Source: the human T2T-CHM13v2.0 reference genome, Homo sapiens. From it: DNA of 64,000 nucleotides. A model generated the notes under the pieces. That model was given only the letters and a program-made list of their open reading frames with translations. It ran no database searches and was not told the origin of the DNA. The stretch is taken from assembly GCF_009914755.1 (NCBI RefSeq), contig NC_060930.1; one strand, 5' to 3'. Within the stretch, counting starts at the first letter, position 1; every line of letters begins with the position of its first letter. A program made the translations under genes and the position numbers. Positions 49,400 through 55,139 of the stretch are shown piece after piece.

Positions 49400-49519
49400 G
49401 AAATATAGAACTAGGTTATACAATAATAAATATGGGGAGTACATAGCATATATAAACACTATTCACAATTCTAAGCTGATAAAATAGAAAATACTGATGG
49501 AATGAAAGAATTATTTTAA
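49400..49519 (+). mobile_element. Ancient L1M ORF2 remnant (left half of the target site)
   Basis: aacactattcacaattctaagctgataaaatagaaaatactgatggaatg resembles the YYEQLYANKLENLDEM region; continues after 54738. Confidence 0.55.
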
Positions 49520-49665
49520 TAGCACACTCAGGTCCATCACCATGTGATGCCCTGCACCACCTTGGAACCCTGAAAGAAAGTCCCACCAGCATGAAGGCTC
49601 TCATCAGAATGAAGGGTCTTACCAGATGTGGTCCCTTGAAGTTGGACTTCTCAGCCTCCATCACA
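49520..49665 (+). mobile_element. MST (MSTC-like) LTR fragment, R-region only
   Basis: tagcacactcag..ccatgtgatgccctgcacc..agtcccaccagca..accagatgtggtcccttga..ttggacttctcagcctccat; no U3 and no 3' LTR end. Confidence 0.8.
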
Positions 49666-50737
49666 ACCCTATCAAGAAAGTGAAAAGGACCACAAAAATT
49701 TCATTCCAAGACGGCCAAATAGGAACAGCTCCGGCCCACAGCTCCCGGCGTGATCGATGCAGAAGACAGGTGATTTCTGCATTTCCAACTGAAGTACCTG
49801 GTTCATCTCACTTGGACTGGTTGGACAGTGGGTGCAGCCCACAGAGGGCAAGCAGAAACAGGGCAGGGCATTGCCTCACCTGGGAAGTGCAAGGGGTCAG
49901 GGGATTTCCCTTTCCTAGCCAAGGGAAGCTGTGACAGACTGTACTTGGAAAATTGGGACACTCCTGCCCAAATACCACAATTTTCCAAACGTCTTAGCAA
50001 ATGGCACACCAGGAGACTATATCCAGTGCCTAGCTCAGCAGGTCCCAAGCCCACAGAGCCTTGCTTACTGCTAGAGCAGCAGTCTGAGATGGAACTGCAA
50101 GGCAGCAGCCTGCCTGGCTGGGGAGGGGTGTCCGCCATTGCTGAGCCTTGAGTAGGTAAACAGAGCAGGCAGGGAAGCTTGAACTGGGTAGAGCCCACTG
50201 CAGCTCAGCAAGGCATGTTGCCTCTGTACATTCCACCTCTGGGGGCAGGGCACAGCTGAACAAAAGGCAGCAGAAACTTCTGCAGGCTTAAATGTCCCTG
50301 TCTGACAGCTCTGAAGAGAGCAGTGGTTCTCCCAGCATGGTGTTTGAGCTCTGAGAAGAGACAGACTGCCTCCTCAAGTGGGTCCCTGACCCCCGTGTAG
50401 CCTAACTGGGAGACACCTCCCAGTAGGGGTAGACTGACACCTCATACAGGTGGATGCCCCTCTGAGACGAAACTTCCAGAGGAAGGATCAGGCAGCAATA
50501 TTTGCTGTTGTGCAATATTTGCTGTTCTGCAGCCTCTGCTGGTGATACCAGGCAAACAGGGTCTGGAGTGGATGTCCAGCAAACTCCAACAGACCTGCAG
50601 CTGAGGGTCCTGACTGTTAGAAGGAAAACTGACAAACAGAAAGCAATAGCAAGAACATCAACAGAAAGGACATCCACACAAAAACCCCTTCTGTAGGTCA
50701 CCAACATCAAAGACCAAAGGTAGATAAAACCACAAAG

Positions 50738-51446
50738 ATGGGGAGAAACCAGAGCAGAAAACCTGAAAATTCTAAAAACCAGAGCACCTCTTCTCCTCCA
50801 AAGGATCACAGCTCCTCGCCAGCAACAGAACAAAGCTGGATGGAGAATGACTTTGATGAACTGACAGAAGTAGGCTTCAGAAGGTCGGTAATAACAAACT
50901 TCTCTGAGCTAAACAAGGGAGGATGTTTGAACCCATAGCAAGGAAGCTAAAAACCTTGAAAAAAGATTAGACGAATGGCTAACTAGAATAAATAATGTAA
51001 AGAAGACCTTAAATGACCTGATGGAACTGAAAACCATGGCACGAGAACAACGTGATGCATGCACAAACTTCAATAGCTGATTCAATCAAGTGGAAGAAAG
51101 GATATCAGAAATTGAAGATCAAATTAATGAAATAAAGCAAGAAAAGAAGTTTGGAGAAAAAAGAGTAAAAAGAAATGAACAAAGCCTCCAAGAAATATGG
51201 GACTATGTGAAAAGACCAAGCTACGTTTGATTGGTGTACCTGAGAGTGACAGGGAGAATGCAACCAAGTTGGAAAACACTCTTCAGGATACTATCCAGAA
51301 ATTCCTCAACCTATAAAATCAGGCCAACATTTAAATTCAGGAAATACAAAGCACACCACTAACATACTCCTCGAGAAGAGCAACTTGAAGACACATAATT
51401 GTCAGATTCACCAAGGTTGAAATGAAGAAAAAAATGCTAAAGGCAG
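50738..51446 (+). pseudogene. Disrupted L1 ORF1
   Basis: MGRNQSRK..SSPPKDHSSSPATEQSWMENDFDEL; frameshifts; C-terminus deleted. Confidence 0.9.
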
Positions 51447-54400
51447 AATTATTTATTGGGTAAATAATCAAATGAAGGCAGAAATAAAGATGTTATTTGA
51501 AACCAATGAGACCAAAGACACAACATACTAGAATCTCTGGGACACATTTAAAGCAGTGTGTAGAGGGAAATTTATAGCACTAAATGCCCACAAGAGAAAG
51601 CAGGAAAGATCTAAAATTGACACCCTAACATCAGAATTTAAAGAACTAAAGACTCAAGAGCAAACAAATTCAAAAGCTAGCAGAAAGCAAGAAATAACTA
51701 ATATCAGAGCAGAACTGAAGGAGATAGAGACACAAAAATCCCTTCAAAAAATCAATGAATCCAGGAGCAGGTTTTTTGAAAAGATCAACAAAATTGATAG
51801 ACCACTAGCAAGACTAATAAAAAAGAAAAGAGAGAAGAATCAAATAGACACAATAAAGGAGATATCATCACGCATCCCACAGAAATACAAACTACCATCA
51901 GAGAATACTATAAACACCTCTAAGCAAATAAACTAGAAAATCTAGAAGAAATTGATAAATTCCTGGACACATACTCCCTCCCAAGACTAAACTGGGAAGA
52001 AATTAAATCTCTGAATAGACCAATAACAGGCTCTGAAATTGAGGCAATAATTAACAGCCTACCAACCAAAAAAAGTCCAGGACCAGACAGATTCATAGCT
52101 GAATTCTACCAGAGGTACAAAGAGGAGCTTCTACTGTTCCTTCTGAAACTATTCCAATCAATAGAAAAAGAGGGAATCCTCCCTAACTCATTTTATGAGG
52201 CCAGCATCATCCTGATACCAAAGCATGGCTGAGACACAATAAAAAAAAGAGAATTTTAGACAAACATCCCTGATGAACATCAATGCAAAAATCCTCAATA
52301 AAATACTGGCAAACCAAATCCAGCAGGACATCAAAAAGCTTCTCCACCATGATCAAGTCAGCTTCATCCCTGGAATGCAAGGCTGGATCAACATACGCAA
52401 ATCAATAAATGTAATCCATCACTAAACAGAATCTTCGACAAAAACCACATGATTATCTCAATAGATGCAGAAAAGGATTTCAACAAAATTCAACAGTGCT
52501 TCATGCTAAAAACTCTCAATAAACTAGGTACCGATGGAATGTATCTCAAAATAATAAGAGCTATTTATGACAAACCCATAGCCAATATCATACTGAATGG
52601 GCAAAAACTGGAAGCATTCCCTTTGAAAACTGTCACAAGACAGGGATGCCCTCTCTCACCACTCCTATTCAAAATAGTGTTGGAAGTCCTGGCCAGGGCA
52701 ATCAGGCAAGAGAAAGAAATAAGGGGTATTCAATTAGGAAAAGGGGAAGTCAAACTGTCCTTGTATGCAGATGACATGATTGTATATTTAGAAAACCCCA
52801 TCGTCTCAGCCCCAAATCTCCTTAAGCTCATAAGCAACTTCAGCAAAGTCTCAGGACATAAAATCAATATGCCAAAATCACAAGCATTCTTACACACCAA
52901 AAACAGACAGAGAACCAAATCATGAGTGAACTCCCATTCACAATTGCTACAAAGAGAATAAAATACCTAGGAATTCAACTTACAAGAGATGTGAAGGACC
53001 TCTTCAAGGAGAACTACAAACCACTGCTCAATGAAATAAAAGAGGTCACAAACAAATGGAAGAACATTCCATGCTCATGGATAGGAAGACTCAATATTGT
53101 GAAAATGGCCATACTGCCCAAGGTAATTTATAGATTCAATACCATCCCCATCAAGCTACCAATGACATTCTTCACAGAATTGGAAAAAACTACTTTAAAG
53201 TTCATATGGAACCAAAAAAGAGCCTGCATTGCCAAGTCAATCCTAAGCAAAAAGAACAAAGCTGGAGGCATCATGCTACCTGACTTCAAACTATACTACA
53301 AGGCTACATTAACCAAAACAGCATGGTACTTGTACCAAAACAGAGAGACAGACCAATGGAACAGAACAGAGCCCTCAGAAATAATACTACAGATGTGTAA
53401 TCATCTGATCTTTGACAAACCTGACAAAAAACAAGCAATGGGAAAAGGATTGCCTATTTAACAAATGGTGTTGGGAAAACTGGCCAGTTATATGTAGAAA
53501 GCTGAAACTGGATCCCTTCCTTACACCTTATACAAAAATTAATTCAAGATGGATTAAAGACTTAAATGTTAGACCTAAAACCATAAAAACCTAGATGAAA
53601 ACCTAGCTAATACCATTCAGGAAATAGGCATGGACGAGGACTTCATGACTAAAATACCAAAAGCAATGGAAACAAAAGCCAAAATAGATAAATGGATCCA
53701 GTTAAACTAAAGAGCTTCTGCACAGCAAAGGAAACTACCATCAGAGTGAACAGGCAACCTACAGAATGGGATAAAATTTTTGCAATCTACTCATCCAACA
53801 AAGGGCTAATATCCAGAATCTACAAAGAACTTAAACAAATTTACAGGAAAAAAACAAACAAAAAACCCTATCAAAAAGTTGGCAAAGAATATGAACAGAC
53901 ACTTCTCAAAAGAAGACATGTATACAGCCAACAGACACATGAAAAAATGCTCATCATCACTGGTCATCAGAGAAATGAAAATCAAAACCATGATGAGATA
54001 CCATCTTACACCAGTTAAAATGGCAATCATTAAGAAGTCCGGAAACAACAGATGCTGGAGAGGATGTGGAGAAATAGGAACGCTATTACACTGTTGGTGG
54101 GAGTATAGACTAGTTTAACCATTGTGGAAGACAGTGTGGTGATTCTTCAAGGATCTAGTGCTAGAAATAGCATTTGACCCAGTGATCCCATTACTGGGTA
54201 TATACCCAAAGGATTATAAATCATGCTACTATAAAGACATGCACACATATATTTATTGCAGCACTATTCACAATAGCAAAGACTTGGAACCAACCCAAAT
54301 GTCCATCAATGATAGACTGGATTAAGAAAATGTGGCACATAAACACCATGGAATACTATGTAGCCATAAAAAAGGATGAGTTCATGTCCTTTGAACGGAC

Positions 54401-54491
54401 ATGGATGAAGCTGGAAACCATCATTCTGAGCAAAGTATCACAAGGACAGAAAACCAAACACCACATGTTCTCACTCATAGGTGGGAATTGA
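51447..54491 (+). pseudogene. Disrupted L1 ORF2 (EN deleted; RT and C-terminal remnants)
   Basis: ORF fragments contain [50 protein letters not shown]; many stops and frameshifts. Confidence 0.93.
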
Positions 54492-55139
54492 ACAGTGAGA
54501 ACACTTTGTCACAGGGTGGGAAAGGTCACACACCAGGGCCTGTCATGGGGTGGGACCAGGGGGAAGGATAGCACTGGGAGAAATACCTAATGTAACTGAT
54601 GGGTTGATGGGTGCAGCAGGCCAGCATGGCACATGTATACCTATGTAAGGAGCCTGCACTTTGTGCACATGTACCCTAGAACTTAAAGTATAATAATAAA
54701 AAAAAAGAAAATGAAAAAACAAAAAGGAATTATTTTAAAATATATAAACAAAGACTAGTGTAAAGGGTTATATAAAGATTCTATAGACAAATAACGAGAT
54801 ATGATTCATCTTTGAAGGGGGCTGCAGAACTAAATTGCTTTACTTGTGAACTACCTCAGCCCCCAATTAATAATCATGCTATAAATTCATCCAGGGGACA
54901 GAACATGATAGCAAATTAGTTACTGTTGTATGAAGTTAACAAAACTCGTATTAAAACCTAGGAAAATGAAAAGAGTAAAATTATAGAATGATAGCACTCA
55001 TGAACACAGATGGAGGTACTTTAAATAAAATATACCAAATAATTTCAATAATTTCTTAAAATAATTTTTATAAAGATGAAGTAATGTTTAATCCAGGACA
55101 CATAATAATGACAGTGACAATTACAATGATGCTGATGAT

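What the first reader, a model, noticed from the sequence alone, without database searches (positions are those of the whole stretch)
49505..54738. Fossil cDNA of a spliced, MST-LTR-promoted L1 transcript (LTR exon 5'-transduced with L1PA6)
Seen: a 15-bp duplication, aaagaattattttaa (49505-49519) and aaggaattattttaa (54724-54738), encloses the L1PA6 plus ~180 nt upstream of it. Removing the enclosed block appears to rejoin one ancient L1M ORF2 segment (..gaaaatactgatggaatgaaagaattattttaaaatatataa..), so the block looks inserted into that site. From recalled consensus: 49520-49665 is an MSTC-like LTR piece. It starts at tagcac, about 28-29 nt after the LTR TATA box (the expected TSS), and stops within 1 nt of the MaLR splice donor (cagcctccataact|gtaag). 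The next 35 nt (aaccctatcaagaaagtgaaaag..) resemble old L1M ORF2 starting just after an AG (aaag|gacactatcaagaaagtgaaaag). Inference: at a source locus an upstream LTR drove transcription, spliced into a cryptic acceptor just before an L1PA6, and the chimeric mRNA was retrotransposed. That would be an L1 using a borrowed LTR promoter, possibly with sibling copies. Alternative: a short spliced retrocopy came first and L1PA6 later inserted into its A-rich tail (aagaaagtgaaaa 49674-49686 resembles aagaaaatgaaaa 54705-54717).
Basis: partly seen in the sequence, partly recalled or inferred. Interest (0 to 1): 0.8.

Follow-up and report, generated by a model that had tools for sequence, protein, structure and literature searches.

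The report
LTR-started spliced RNA fused to L1
A dead L1 element on chromosome 6 carries at its front a processed copy of a spliced RNA that started in an old retroviral LTR on chromosome 13, a rare but already described kind of L1 chimera that records an LTR promoter at work in the germline roughly 25-30 million years ago.

Summary
The core observation holds. One 15-bp target-site duplication (14/15) encloses 178 nt of foreign sequence plus a near full-length L1PA6-like element.

I found the parent of the foreign piece on chr13 of the same assembly. It is a complete MST-type LTR, and the window piece starts 27 nt after its TATAAG and ends at its GTAAG donor. The next 22 nt match chr13 exactly 2.35 kb downstream, on the same strand, directly after an AG. 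So the piece is a cDNA of a GT-AG-spliced, LTR-initiated chr13 transcript.

No L1PA 5'UTR lies within 200 kb downstream on chr13. No sibling copy was found.

The L1's A-rich tail holds a 16/18 copy of the chr13 sequence at the junction. This fits either the target duplication of a vanished chr13 progenitor L1, carried along on both sides (my best reading, about 0.5), or an L1PA6 nested in an older mini-retrocopy (about 0.25). Template switching is possible (about 0.15).

Colinearity of the flanks in an old L1 was not confirmed. The class was catalogued by Law and Burns (2025/2026), so this is a new member with an LTR first exon. Interest is moderate.

The parts
49505..49519 (+). Outer target-site duplication, 5' copy (aaagaattattttaa). 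The top-strand cleavage context is tg/aaag.
   Evidence: It matches the 3' copy 14/15. 114 of 100,000 shuffles reach that score.
49520..49665 (+). Exon 1 of the retro-copied RNA. This is the MST-type (MaLR) LTR from its inferred transcription start to the last exon base before the LTR splice donor.
   Evidence: 88% to chr13:26428631-26428774; it starts 27 nt after TATAAG and ends at catcac t|GTAAG; the window and chr13 alone (2 of 15 rows) share a roughly 17-nt internal duplication; 128 of 146 columns are identical.
49666..49687 (+). Exon 2 fragment, 22 nt, copied from chr13:26431121-26431142. In the parent it lies directly after an AG, 2,345 nt downstream of the donor, inside an old L1 ORF2 fragment.
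   Evidence: 22/22, E 4e-7 in 200 kb...gcatctaaAG|accctatc; the chr13 stretch aligns to L1 ORF2 at 66%, E 1.5e-39.
49674..49693 (+). Inner repeat, 5' copy. aagaaagtgaaaag is identical to chr13. The next 6 nt, gaccac, may be a diverged acaac.
49688..49697 (+). 10-nt junction stretch (gaccacaaaa) with no certain template. It is either filler, or a diverged chr13 acaac plus four A.
   Evidence: chr13 continues acaacctacgg. (no other genomic copy of the junction beyond chance: 6 hits against 4 for the reversed control).
49698..54706 (+). L1PA6-like element (family name not verified). It runs from about its third base to its 3' end plus a run of 9 A (54698-54706). All ORFs are fragmentary, the longest being 179 aa.
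   Evidence: 89-92% to other L1PA 5'UTRs. (5' ends of 10 relatives). (colinear with a 6.1-kb chr4 copy except for one deletion). (ORFs).
51447..51453 (+). Filler at a private 1.15-kb internal deletion. The deletion removes the ORF1 C-terminal part, the spacer and the ORF2 endonuclease region. It has no GT-AG boundaries.
   Evidence: none of the 39 non-self hits spans the junction.
54705..54722 (+). Inner repeat, 3' copy, inside the A-rich tail (aagaaaatgaaaaaacaa). It matches the chr13 18-mer aagaaagtgaaaagacaa 16/18.
   Evidence: 139 of 100,000 shuffles reach 16/18; 13 unselected L1 tails reach only 11-14 of 18.
54724..54738 (+). Outer target-site duplication, 3' copy (aaggaattattttaa). Only 3-5 A precede it after the inner repeat.

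Best explanation
**What it is.** The block 49520-54723 is a single L1-mediated insertion of a chimeric RNA.

**How it arose.** At chr13 (T2T 26.43 Mb) an MST-type LTR fired from its TATA-directed start. Its own GTAAG donor was spliced to a cryptic AG 2.35 kb downstream, inside an old L1 fragment. About 22-28 nt after that acceptor sat an L1PA6-like progenitor. That progenitor is no longer present in this assembly; it was never fixed or was lost.

**How the RNA ended.** The spliced RNA ran through the progenitor. It was cleaved about 20 nt after the L1's AATAAA, beyond the progenitor's short A-run, at a CA in the progenitor's 3' target-site copy. The L1 machinery then copied this RNA into chr6 at tg/aaagaattattttaa.

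**Shown.**
- The outer duplication.
- The parentage of the 168 nt.
- Removal of a GT-AG intron.
- The start at TATA+27.

**Inferred.**
- That an L1 once sat at chr13.
- That the LTR rather than the L1's own promoter made the RNA that was copied.
- That the inner repeat is the progenitor's target duplication, carried along on both sides.
For: **Parent locus**
- The chr13 LTR is the only copy at 88% over exactly the window piece. The other 38 scored hits are 71-87%, and those above 84% cover only about 60 nt.
- The window and chr13 share a roughly 17-nt duplication absent from the 13 other MST copies aligned.

**Splicing**
- Exon 1 ends at the LTR's GTAAG.
- The next 22 nt match chr13 22/22, on the same strand, 2,345 nt on, right after AG.

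**One event is plausible**
- A single good outer duplication encloses both parts in the same orientation.
- The window piece and the chr13 LTR differ at 18 of 146 columns. By my reading against the other copies, these split roughly evenly between the two lineages, about 6% each.
- That is the same order as the L1's 9-12.6% pairwise distance to a chr4 relative. The two parts therefore look the same age.

**Progenitor footprint**
- The tail carries a 16/18 copy of the chr13 junction 18-mer right after a 9-A run. 139 of 100,000 shuffles reach it, and 0 of 13 unselected L1 tails reach 15.

**Precedents**
- The site is a usable L1 target: another L1 sits at the homologous spot of a different old L1 on chr2.
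- The chr4 relative L059 shows the same layout. It has a 20-bp outer duplication, 18 nt extra at the 5' end and 35 nt extra at the 3' end, and the two extras share a 9-mer.
- Law and Burns describe a source L1PA2 with a cryptic acceptor 15 bp upstream that was mobilised from the RAP1GDS1 promoter (section read).
- An MSTD LTR has a mapped start 35 bp after its TATA and uses an LTR donor (PMC5513427, passages).
Against: - No L1PA 5'UTR lies within 200 kb downstream of the chr13 LTR. The chr13 site is uninterrupted old L1. The progenitor is therefore hypothetical.
- No sibling was found. No second copy of the exon junction exists and no second copy of the junction with the L1. No other L1 tail carries the motif: one search found only the window and an unrelated chr2 element, and 12 of 12 inspected tails lack it. 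These searches have low power at this age.
- 10 nt (49688-49697) need a filler under this reading. Their last four bases are A, which a nested insertion into a poly(A) tail would explain for free.
- The final poly(A) tail would be only 3-5 A, unusually short.
- With the strict 14-mer that is unambiguous in the window, the inner repeat is only 12/14, and 4,062 of 100,000 shuffles reach that.
- The last exon-1 base is A in the window but T at chr13.
Confidence: 0.5

Rival explanations
1. Two steps. A very short polyadenylated RNA was first retro-copied into chr6, making the outer duplication. It consisted of LTR exon 1 plus about 28 nt of exon 2. Later an L1PA6 inserted into its last 14-23 nt, in the same orientation, making the inner repeat as its own target duplication.
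For: - The inner repeat lies exactly where an L1's own duplication should. One copy abuts the L1 5' end within 0-10 nt and the other follows the A-run.
- If gaccac is a diverged acaac, the four A before the L1 are the retrocopy's tail. Every base is then accounted for without filler.
- No progenitor L1 is needed, which matches the empty chr13 site.
- AAGAAA, which I recall as a weak poly(A)-signal variant, lies 13 nt before the end.
- The A-rich site is a good L1 target.
Against: - It needs a 28-nt terminal exon without a canonical poly(A) signal.
- It needs a retrocopy whose tail was at most 3-5 A when the L1 arrived.
- It needs an L1 landing in the last two dozen bases of a 180-bp target in the same orientation.
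- There are no other retrocopies of such an RNA. Among the 40 of 199 candidates scored, no hit other than the chr13 LTR and the locus itself exceeds 87%, and those above 84% cover only about 60 nt.
- The two inner copies share no derived change against chr13 (and my reading). The LTR piece looks no older than the L1. Both of these are weak evidence because so few sites are involved.
Confidence: 0.25
2. RNA-level recombination. During one retrotransposition the L1 reverse transcriptase reached the 5' end of an unrelated L1PA6 RNA, added a few bases, and jumped onto the spliced chr13 LTR transcript (or a fragment ending about 22-28 nt into exon 2). It copied that RNA to its cap. Alternatively the two RNAs were ligated beforehand. 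The tail resemblance is then chance.
For: - There is a single outer duplication, both parts are in sense, and an unexplained 10 nt lies at the joint.
- No L1 is at the parent locus.
- Law and Burns report that 15 of their 17 parent gene loci lack an intronic L1, and they favour recombination in trans (section read).
- Template-switch chimeras are established for U6 and other RNAs (section read; PMC4476161, listing only).
- As a plain decayed tail, the 28-nt A-rich stretch looks like the other L1 tails inspected.
Against: - The 16/18 match of the tail to the chr13 sequence at the joint must be coincidence. 139 of 100,000 shuffles reach it, and 0 of 13 unselected tails reach 15.
- Trans-splicing proper does not fit. 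The LTR donor is joined to a chr13 acceptor in cis, not to the L1.
- By the paper's account such jumps mostly involve 5'-truncated L1s. This L1 lacks only about 2 bases.
Confidence: 0.15
3. Nothing special: an ordinary truncated MST LTR that already lay at chr6, with an L1PA6 that happened to insert beside it.
For: MST fragments are common. One search found 199 candidates and scored 40.
Against: - The piece lies inside the duplication that also bounds the L1 tail.
- It starts at the promoter's start site and stops at the donor.
- It is followed by 22 nt that lie 2.35 kb away from the parent LTR on chr13, after an AG.
- It shares a private duplication with that parent.
Confidence: 0.02

Closest known systems
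L1 chimeric insertions carrying spliced 5' exons of mRNAs or lncRNAs, above all the RAP1GDS1-L1PA2 case (Law and Burns; bioRxiv 10.1101/2025.02.02.635956, published as PMC13174262). I read preprint sections 20, 24, 25 and 32 and Table S5.
   Same: - One target duplication encloses first exon(s) in sense plus a near full-length L1.
- An intron has been removed.
- The parent locus mostly lacks an L1.
- In the RAP1GDS1 case a cryptic acceptor lies 15 bp before the source L1. Here the distance would be 22-28 nt.
   Different: - The first exon and promoter here are an MST (MaLR) LTR, not a gene promoter. 'MaLR' and 'MST' do not occur in the preprint's main text.
- The donor is joined to a cis acceptor and only then to the L1. 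This argues against trans-splicing for this locus.
- Both copies of a possible progenitor duplication are carried.
- The locus is not in their Table S5, whose chr6 rows are at 10.2 and 105.2 Mb. No coordinate beginning 9157-9160 on chr6 occurs in any table. The hg38 position of about 91.59 Mb is my estimate from a recalled MIR4643 coordinate.
SVA subfamilies with a spliced 5' transduction (MAST2 exon 1 - SVA). PMC6139936, of which I saw only the search listing and the start of the abstract; the older papers are recalled.
   Same: A foreign promoter and first exon are spliced onto a non-LTR retrotransposon, and the chimera is retro-copied.
   Different: That lineage went on to amplify. No sibling or descendant was found here.
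Template-switch or ligation chimeras such as U6/L1 (section 20 of Law and Burns; PMC4476161, listing only).
   Same: There are two RNAs in one insertion with one duplication, both in sense orientation.
   Different: Those usually pair a whole small RNA with a strongly 5'-truncated L1. Here a capped, spliced Pol II transcript fragment is joined to an almost complete L1, and an inner repeat is present.
LTR-initiated chimeric host transcripts, e.g. MSTD LTR-IL33 (PMC5513427, passages read).
   Same: An MST-family LTR acts as a TATA-dependent promoter, and its internal donor is spliced to a downstream acceptor.
   Different: The downstream partner there is a host gene and the evidence is RNA. Here the evidence is a fossil cDNA in the genome, attached to an L1.
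Spliced integrated retrotransposed elements (SpIREs), as described in Law and Burns section 25.
   Same: An L1 copy with an internal piece missing.
   Different: The 1.15-kb gap here has no GT-AG boundaries, carries 7 nt of filler, and is private to this locus. It is a deletion, not an intron.

Membership tests
L1 (TPRT) insertion | Target-site duplication flanking the whole insert | tested here: met
   14/15 over 15 bp. 114 of 100,000 shuffles reach it.
L1 (TPRT) insertion | A-rich tail at the 3' end, directly before the 3' duplication | tested here: met
   54698-54725 is A-rich: 24 of 28 bases are A. If the inner repeat is real, the true terminal run is only 3-5 A.
L1 (TPRT) insertion | Endonuclease-type cleavage site (top strand TT/AAAA-like) | tested here: inconclusive
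   The outer site is tg/aaag. The right side is A-rich, but the left side is not TT.
L1 chimera with spliced 5' exons (Law and Burns class) | Non-L1 sequence directly 5' of a near full-length L1, in sense, inside the same duplication | tested here: met
L1 chimera with spliced 5' exons (Law and Burns class) | The 5' piece maps elsewhere to the start of a transcript, with an intron removed at GT-AG | tested here: met
   At chr13 the start is TATA+27, the donor is GTAAG and the acceptor AG is 2,345 nt on. The transcript start is inferred from the TATA box. No RNA data or annotation for chr13 was available.
L1 chimera with spliced 5' exons (Law and Burns class) | Both parts arrive together in cross-species alignments | not testable with these tools
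   No primate genomes are held. Only a rough proxy exists: the LTR piece shows about 6% change per lineage, against an L1 pairwise distance of 9-12.6%.
Cis 5' transduction from an identified source L1 | A source L1 next to the transduced sequence at the parent locus | tested here: not met
   No L1PA 5'UTR lies within 200 kb downstream. The site is uninterrupted. This holds for this one assembly only.
Nested insertion (L1 inside an older retrocopy) | The L1 has its own target duplication inside the outer one | tested here: inconclusive
   The inner repeat matches chr13 16/18 (139 of 100,000 shuffles reach it). The strict window 14-mer matches only 12/14 (4,062 of 100,000). The same repeat is predicted by a lost progenitor.
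Nested insertion (L1 inside an older retrocopy) | The outer element is present without the L1 in some lineage | not testable with these tools
   No primate genomes are held.
MST / MaLR LTR | Sequence similarity to other copies, with the TATA box and the LTR donor at the family's places | tested here: met
One search gave 39 non-self hits. In one search, TATAAG is kept in 9 of 14 LTRs and GTAA at the donor in 10 of 14.
SpIRE (intra-L1 splicing) | Internal gap bounded by GT...AG at known L1 splice sites | tested here: not met
   In the intact relative the gap starts ccagag.. and ends ..gactac. There are 7 nt of filler.

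The most novel reading that the evidence does not exclude
An L1PA6 that once sat on chr13, and has since vanished from the human lineage, was mobilised from the promoter and splice donor of a neighbouring MST LTR. Its chr6 offspring carries both copies of the progenitor's target duplication, so the lost insertion site can be placed to within a few bases (after chr13:26431142-26431148, T2T). If so, this is direct evidence that at least some 'sourceless' exon-L1 chimeras arose by ordinary cis-splicing and 5' transduction from unfixed progenitors, not by trans-splicing. It would also show that one class of retroelement lent its promoter to another in the germline.
Probability: 0.5. 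Interest if true: 0.55.

Novelty: new member of a known kind. Interest (0 to 1): 0.42.

Why it matters
- **Germline promoter record.** The locus is a nucleotide-level record that a particular MST LTR promoter, donor and cryptic acceptor on chr13 were used in the primate germline roughly 25-30 million years ago. The date rests on a recalled neutral rate and a recalled L1PA6 age.
- **An LTR-derived first exon.** It adds this variant to the recently catalogued exon-L1 chimeras.
- **An open question.** Law and Burns favour trans-splicing because most parent genes lack an L1. Here the donor was spliced in cis to a site 2.35 kb away before the L1 follows, and a possible footprint of a lost progenitor is present. 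This points to unfixed source elements as an explanation for at least this case.
- **No present-day function.** The L1 is deleted and its reading frames are broken, and no gene is annotated in the window.

Tried and rejected
- **Siblings sharing the 5' junction.** A 24-nt pattern with up to 3 mismatches gave 6 hits against 4 for the reversed control, all with 3 mismatches except the locus itself.
- **Siblings sharing the tail motif.**
  - A 25-nt A-flanked motif gave 561 hits against 1,625 for the control, so it is uninformative. Only 100 hits were listed.
  - A gapped motif anchored on the L1 3' end gave 2 hits, the locus itself and chr2.
  - The chr2 element is an unrelated L1 inserted at the homologous site of another old L1. 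Its flank is only 68% identical to chr13.
  - A chr4 tail holding the same 24-mer belongs to a different, older, 5'-truncated L1 with its own duplication. I judge it a coincidence.
  - I inspected 12 of the 39 best tail matches, those whose alignment reached the tail. None has the motif.
- **Flank repeats.** Searches gave only self hits. Colinearity in an old L1 was not significant. A protein-level comparison gave E 0.62 for the left flank. It found an old L1 reverse-transcriptase piece further right at about 54970-55098 (E 0.005), which is not colinear with that hit.
- **Intra-L1 splicing as the cause of the 1.15-kb gap.** Rejected.
- **Segmental duplication or other DNA-level origin of the LTR piece.** Rejected because the 2,345-nt intron is removed precisely at GT-AG and the piece starts at the promoter's start site.
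- **Trans-splicing of the LTR donor onto L1 RNA.** Rejected because 22 nt of cis exon 2 intervene.
- **Literature and other tools.**
  - The first two literature searches failed on term format. The corrected search for 5' transduction found nothing.
  - A phrase search for chr6 coordinates in the supplements does not work in that tool; its positive controls also failed.
  - Earlier findings of this scan were not open to the session.

Full report
**What is in the window**

The 15-mer aaagaattattttaa (49505-49519) recurs as aaggaattattttaa (54724-54738). It matches 14/15. Only 114 of 100,000 composition-preserving shuffles of the 15-mer do as well within the 60 nt around the tail. Between the two copies lie, in order:
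- 146 nt of MST-type LTR (49520-49665);
- 22 nt (49666-49687);
- 10 nt with no certain template (49688-49697);
- an L1PA6-like element from about its third base (49698) to its 3' end, with a run of 9 A (to 54706);
- an A-rich stretch with G, TG and C interspersed (to 54725).

Ten related L1 copies were fetched to place the element's start. In 6 of 10 the element runs on upstream as GGATTCC(A/G)TT or GGTTTCCATT before CCAAGATGG.

The L1 is 5.0 kb. Against a 6.1-kb chr4 relative (L059) it is colinear except for a 1,150-nt gap, at window 51446/51454. The gap removes the end of ORF1, the spacer and the start of ORF2. It has 7 nt of filler, no GT-AG, and is private: none of the 39 non-self hits spans it. 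All open frames are 179 aa or shorter.

**The parent of the 5' piece**

I searched the window's own assembly with 49490-49730. 40 of 199 candidates were scored. One hit stands out: chr13:26428631-26428774, plus strand, 88% identity, covering exactly window 49520-49664. Every other hit is 71-87% identical, and those above 84% cover only about 60 nt.

The chr13 locus is a complete LTR.
- TATAAG lies 27 nt before the base where the window piece begins (tagcac).
- The piece ends at catcac, followed in chr13 by t|GTAAG.

In a MAFFT alignment of the window, chr13 and 13 of the 18 other MST loci (five left out untested), the window and chr13 alone share a roughly 17-nt internal duplication. 9 of 14 LTRs keep TATAAG at that place and 10 of 14 keep GTAA at the donor place.

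I then fetched 200 kb downstream of the chr13 LTR. Window 49666-49687 matches 22/22 at chr13:26431121-26431142 on the same strand (E 4e-7). It is directly preceded by ..cttttgtgcatctaaAG.

The 2,345 nt between these points therefore begin GT and end AG and are missing from the window. The 168 nt are a cDNA of a spliced transcript that began at the LTR's TATA-directed start.

The chr13 acceptor and exon 2 lie in an old L1 ORF2 fragment in sense. It is 66% identical to the window's own L1 at 53659-54031, E 1.5e-39.

An MSTD LTR with a start mapped 35 bp after its TATA box and a used LTR donor is documented for IL33 (PMC5513427, passages).

**What is not at chr13**

After the 22 nt, chr13 continues acaacctacgg.. 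as old L1. No L1PA 5'UTR lies within the 200 kb. The predicted source L1 is thus absent from this assembly.

No sibling was found:
- no second copy of the exon junction;
- none of the junction with the L1 (6 hits against 4 for the control, all others with 3 mismatches);
- none of the tail motif.

At this age and with exact or near-exact patterns, these searches would miss most siblings.

**The inner repeat**

The chr13 18-mer aagaaagtgaaaagacaa spans the end of the 22 nt. It recurs 16/18 in the window's tail at 54705-54722, right after the 9-A run.
- 139 of 100,000 shuffles of the 18-mer reach this.
- 13 unselected L1 tails reach only 11-14 of 18.
- With only the 14 nt that are unambiguous in the window's 5' copy, the match is 12/14, and 4,062 of 100,000 shuffles reach it.

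I take the repeat as probably real.

**Three routes fit the anatomy**

(a) Lost progenitor.
- An L1PA6 inserted at chr13 22-28 nt after the cryptic acceptor, duplicating aagaaagtgaaaag(acaac).
- LTR-driven, cis-spliced RNA read through it.
- Because the progenitor's A-run was short, cleavage fell about 20 nt after AATAAA, at a CA in the 3' duplicate.
- The chimera was copied into chr6.
- The chr4 relative L059 shows just such a layout: a 20-bp outer duplication, 18 nt extra at the 5' end and 35 nt extra at the 3' end, sharing a 9-mer.
- An unrelated L1 on chr2 sits at the homologous site of another old L1, so the site is a usable target.

(b) Template switch or ligation.
- This would join an unrelated L1 RNA to the chr13 transcript. 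The inner repeat is then chance.

(c) Nested insertion.
- A mini-retrocopy (exon 1 plus about 28 nt) came first, and an L1PA6 later landed in its last two dozen bases.
- The inner repeat is then the L1's own duplication.
- If gaccac is a diverged acaac, the four A before the L1 are the retrocopy's tail.

**Weighing the routes**
- Age. The LTR piece differs from chr13 at 18 of 146 columns. By my reading against the other copies, the changes split about evenly, roughly 6% per lineage. This is comparable with the L1's 9-12.6% pairwise distance to L059. The two parts look the same age, which favours one event only weakly because the sites are few.
- Costs of (c). It needs a 28-nt terminal exon without a canonical signal, a tail of at most 5 A at the time, and a hit in a very small target.
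- Costs of (a). It needs a vanished L1, a 4-10-nt filler and a final tail of 3-5 A.
- Costs of (b). It needs the 16/18 coincidence.
- Trans-splicing onto L1 RNA is excluded here, because the donor is joined to a cis acceptor.

I put (a) at 0.5, (c) at 0.25, (b) at 0.15, and an ordinary pre-existing truncated LTR beside an independent L1 at 0.02. These odds rest on rough priors and could shift with one comparative alignment.

**Comparison with what is known**

Law and Burns (bioRxiv 2025, Cell Genomics 2026; preprint sections 20, 24, 25 and 32 and Table S5 read) report the following.
- They list 17 L1 insertions with first exons of genes or lncRNAs fused in sense to mostly near full-length L1s within one duplication.
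- Six of these end exactly at donors.
- 15 parent loci have no L1.
- In one case (RAP1GDS1) a source L1PA2 lies 15 bp after a cryptic acceptor.

The present locus belongs to that kind. It is not in their Table S5, whose chr6 rows are at 10.2 and 105.2 Mb. No chr6 coordinate beginning 9157-9160 occurs in any of their tables. The hg38 position is my estimate from a recalled coordinate. 'MaLR' and 'MST' do not occur in the preprint's main text.

What is new here is the LTR as promoter and first exon, the cis-spliced second exon before the L1, and the possible progenitor footprint. Spliced 5' transduction is also known for SVA (PMC6139936, listing only).

**Limits**
- No repeat library was available, so MSTC, L1PA6 and L1M are unverified names.
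- No primate genomes, chr13 annotation or RNA data were available.
- The dates of about 25-30 million years rest on a recalled neutral rate and a recalled L1PA6 age.

Noticed in passing
window 51446-51454: The L1 has a private 1.15-kb internal deletion with 7 nt of filler (attattt). It removes the ORF1 C-terminal part, the inter-ORF spacer and the ORF2 endonuclease region. There are no GT-AG boundaries, and none of 39 other genomic hits spans the junction.
   Followed up: yes
L059 (chr4:92201470-92207900), positions 1-60 and 6160-6245: The L1 copy closest to the window's 5'UTR has a 20-bp outer duplication (aaaaaaaatgaacagcaatg). It carries 18 extra nt before a 5'-truncated L1 and 35 extra nt after a 7-A run, and the two extras share gcattctaa. 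It looks like a 5' plus 3' micro-transduction that carries its progenitor's target duplication.
   Followed up: partly
L047 (chr2:68522300-68523100), about 290-330: A younger L1PA element sits in a different old L1 copy at exactly the homologous site (..aaaaaaagaaagtgaaaagacaacc..). That A-rich ORF2 stretch may be a recurrent L1 target.
   Followed up: partly
L002 1501-1645 (chr13 LTR): The parent LTR keeps two CpG sites (tagcacGctc, cttCGcc). Each is kept in only 1 of the 13 other MST copies aligned, and the window copy has lost both. This could mean long-term germline hypomethylation of this LTR. The numbers are small, and two further CpGs in chr13 look newly made.
   Followed up: no
window 54970-55098: An old L1 reverse-transcriptase fragment lies on the plus strand in the right flank. 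It reads ..NYRMIALMNTDGGTLNKI.. against the window L1's own ORF2 (tblastn E 0.005). It is not colinear with the weak ORF2 C-terminal resemblance in the left flank at 49383-49475 (E 0.62).
   Followed up: partly
L048 (chr4:71807950-71808400), about 300-330: An unrelated, older, 5'-truncated L1 has a tail containing the same 24-mer as the window's tail (aagaaaatgaaaaaacaaaaa). I judge it chance among very many A-rich tails, but it is a caution about reading meaning into decayed tails.
   Followed up: partly
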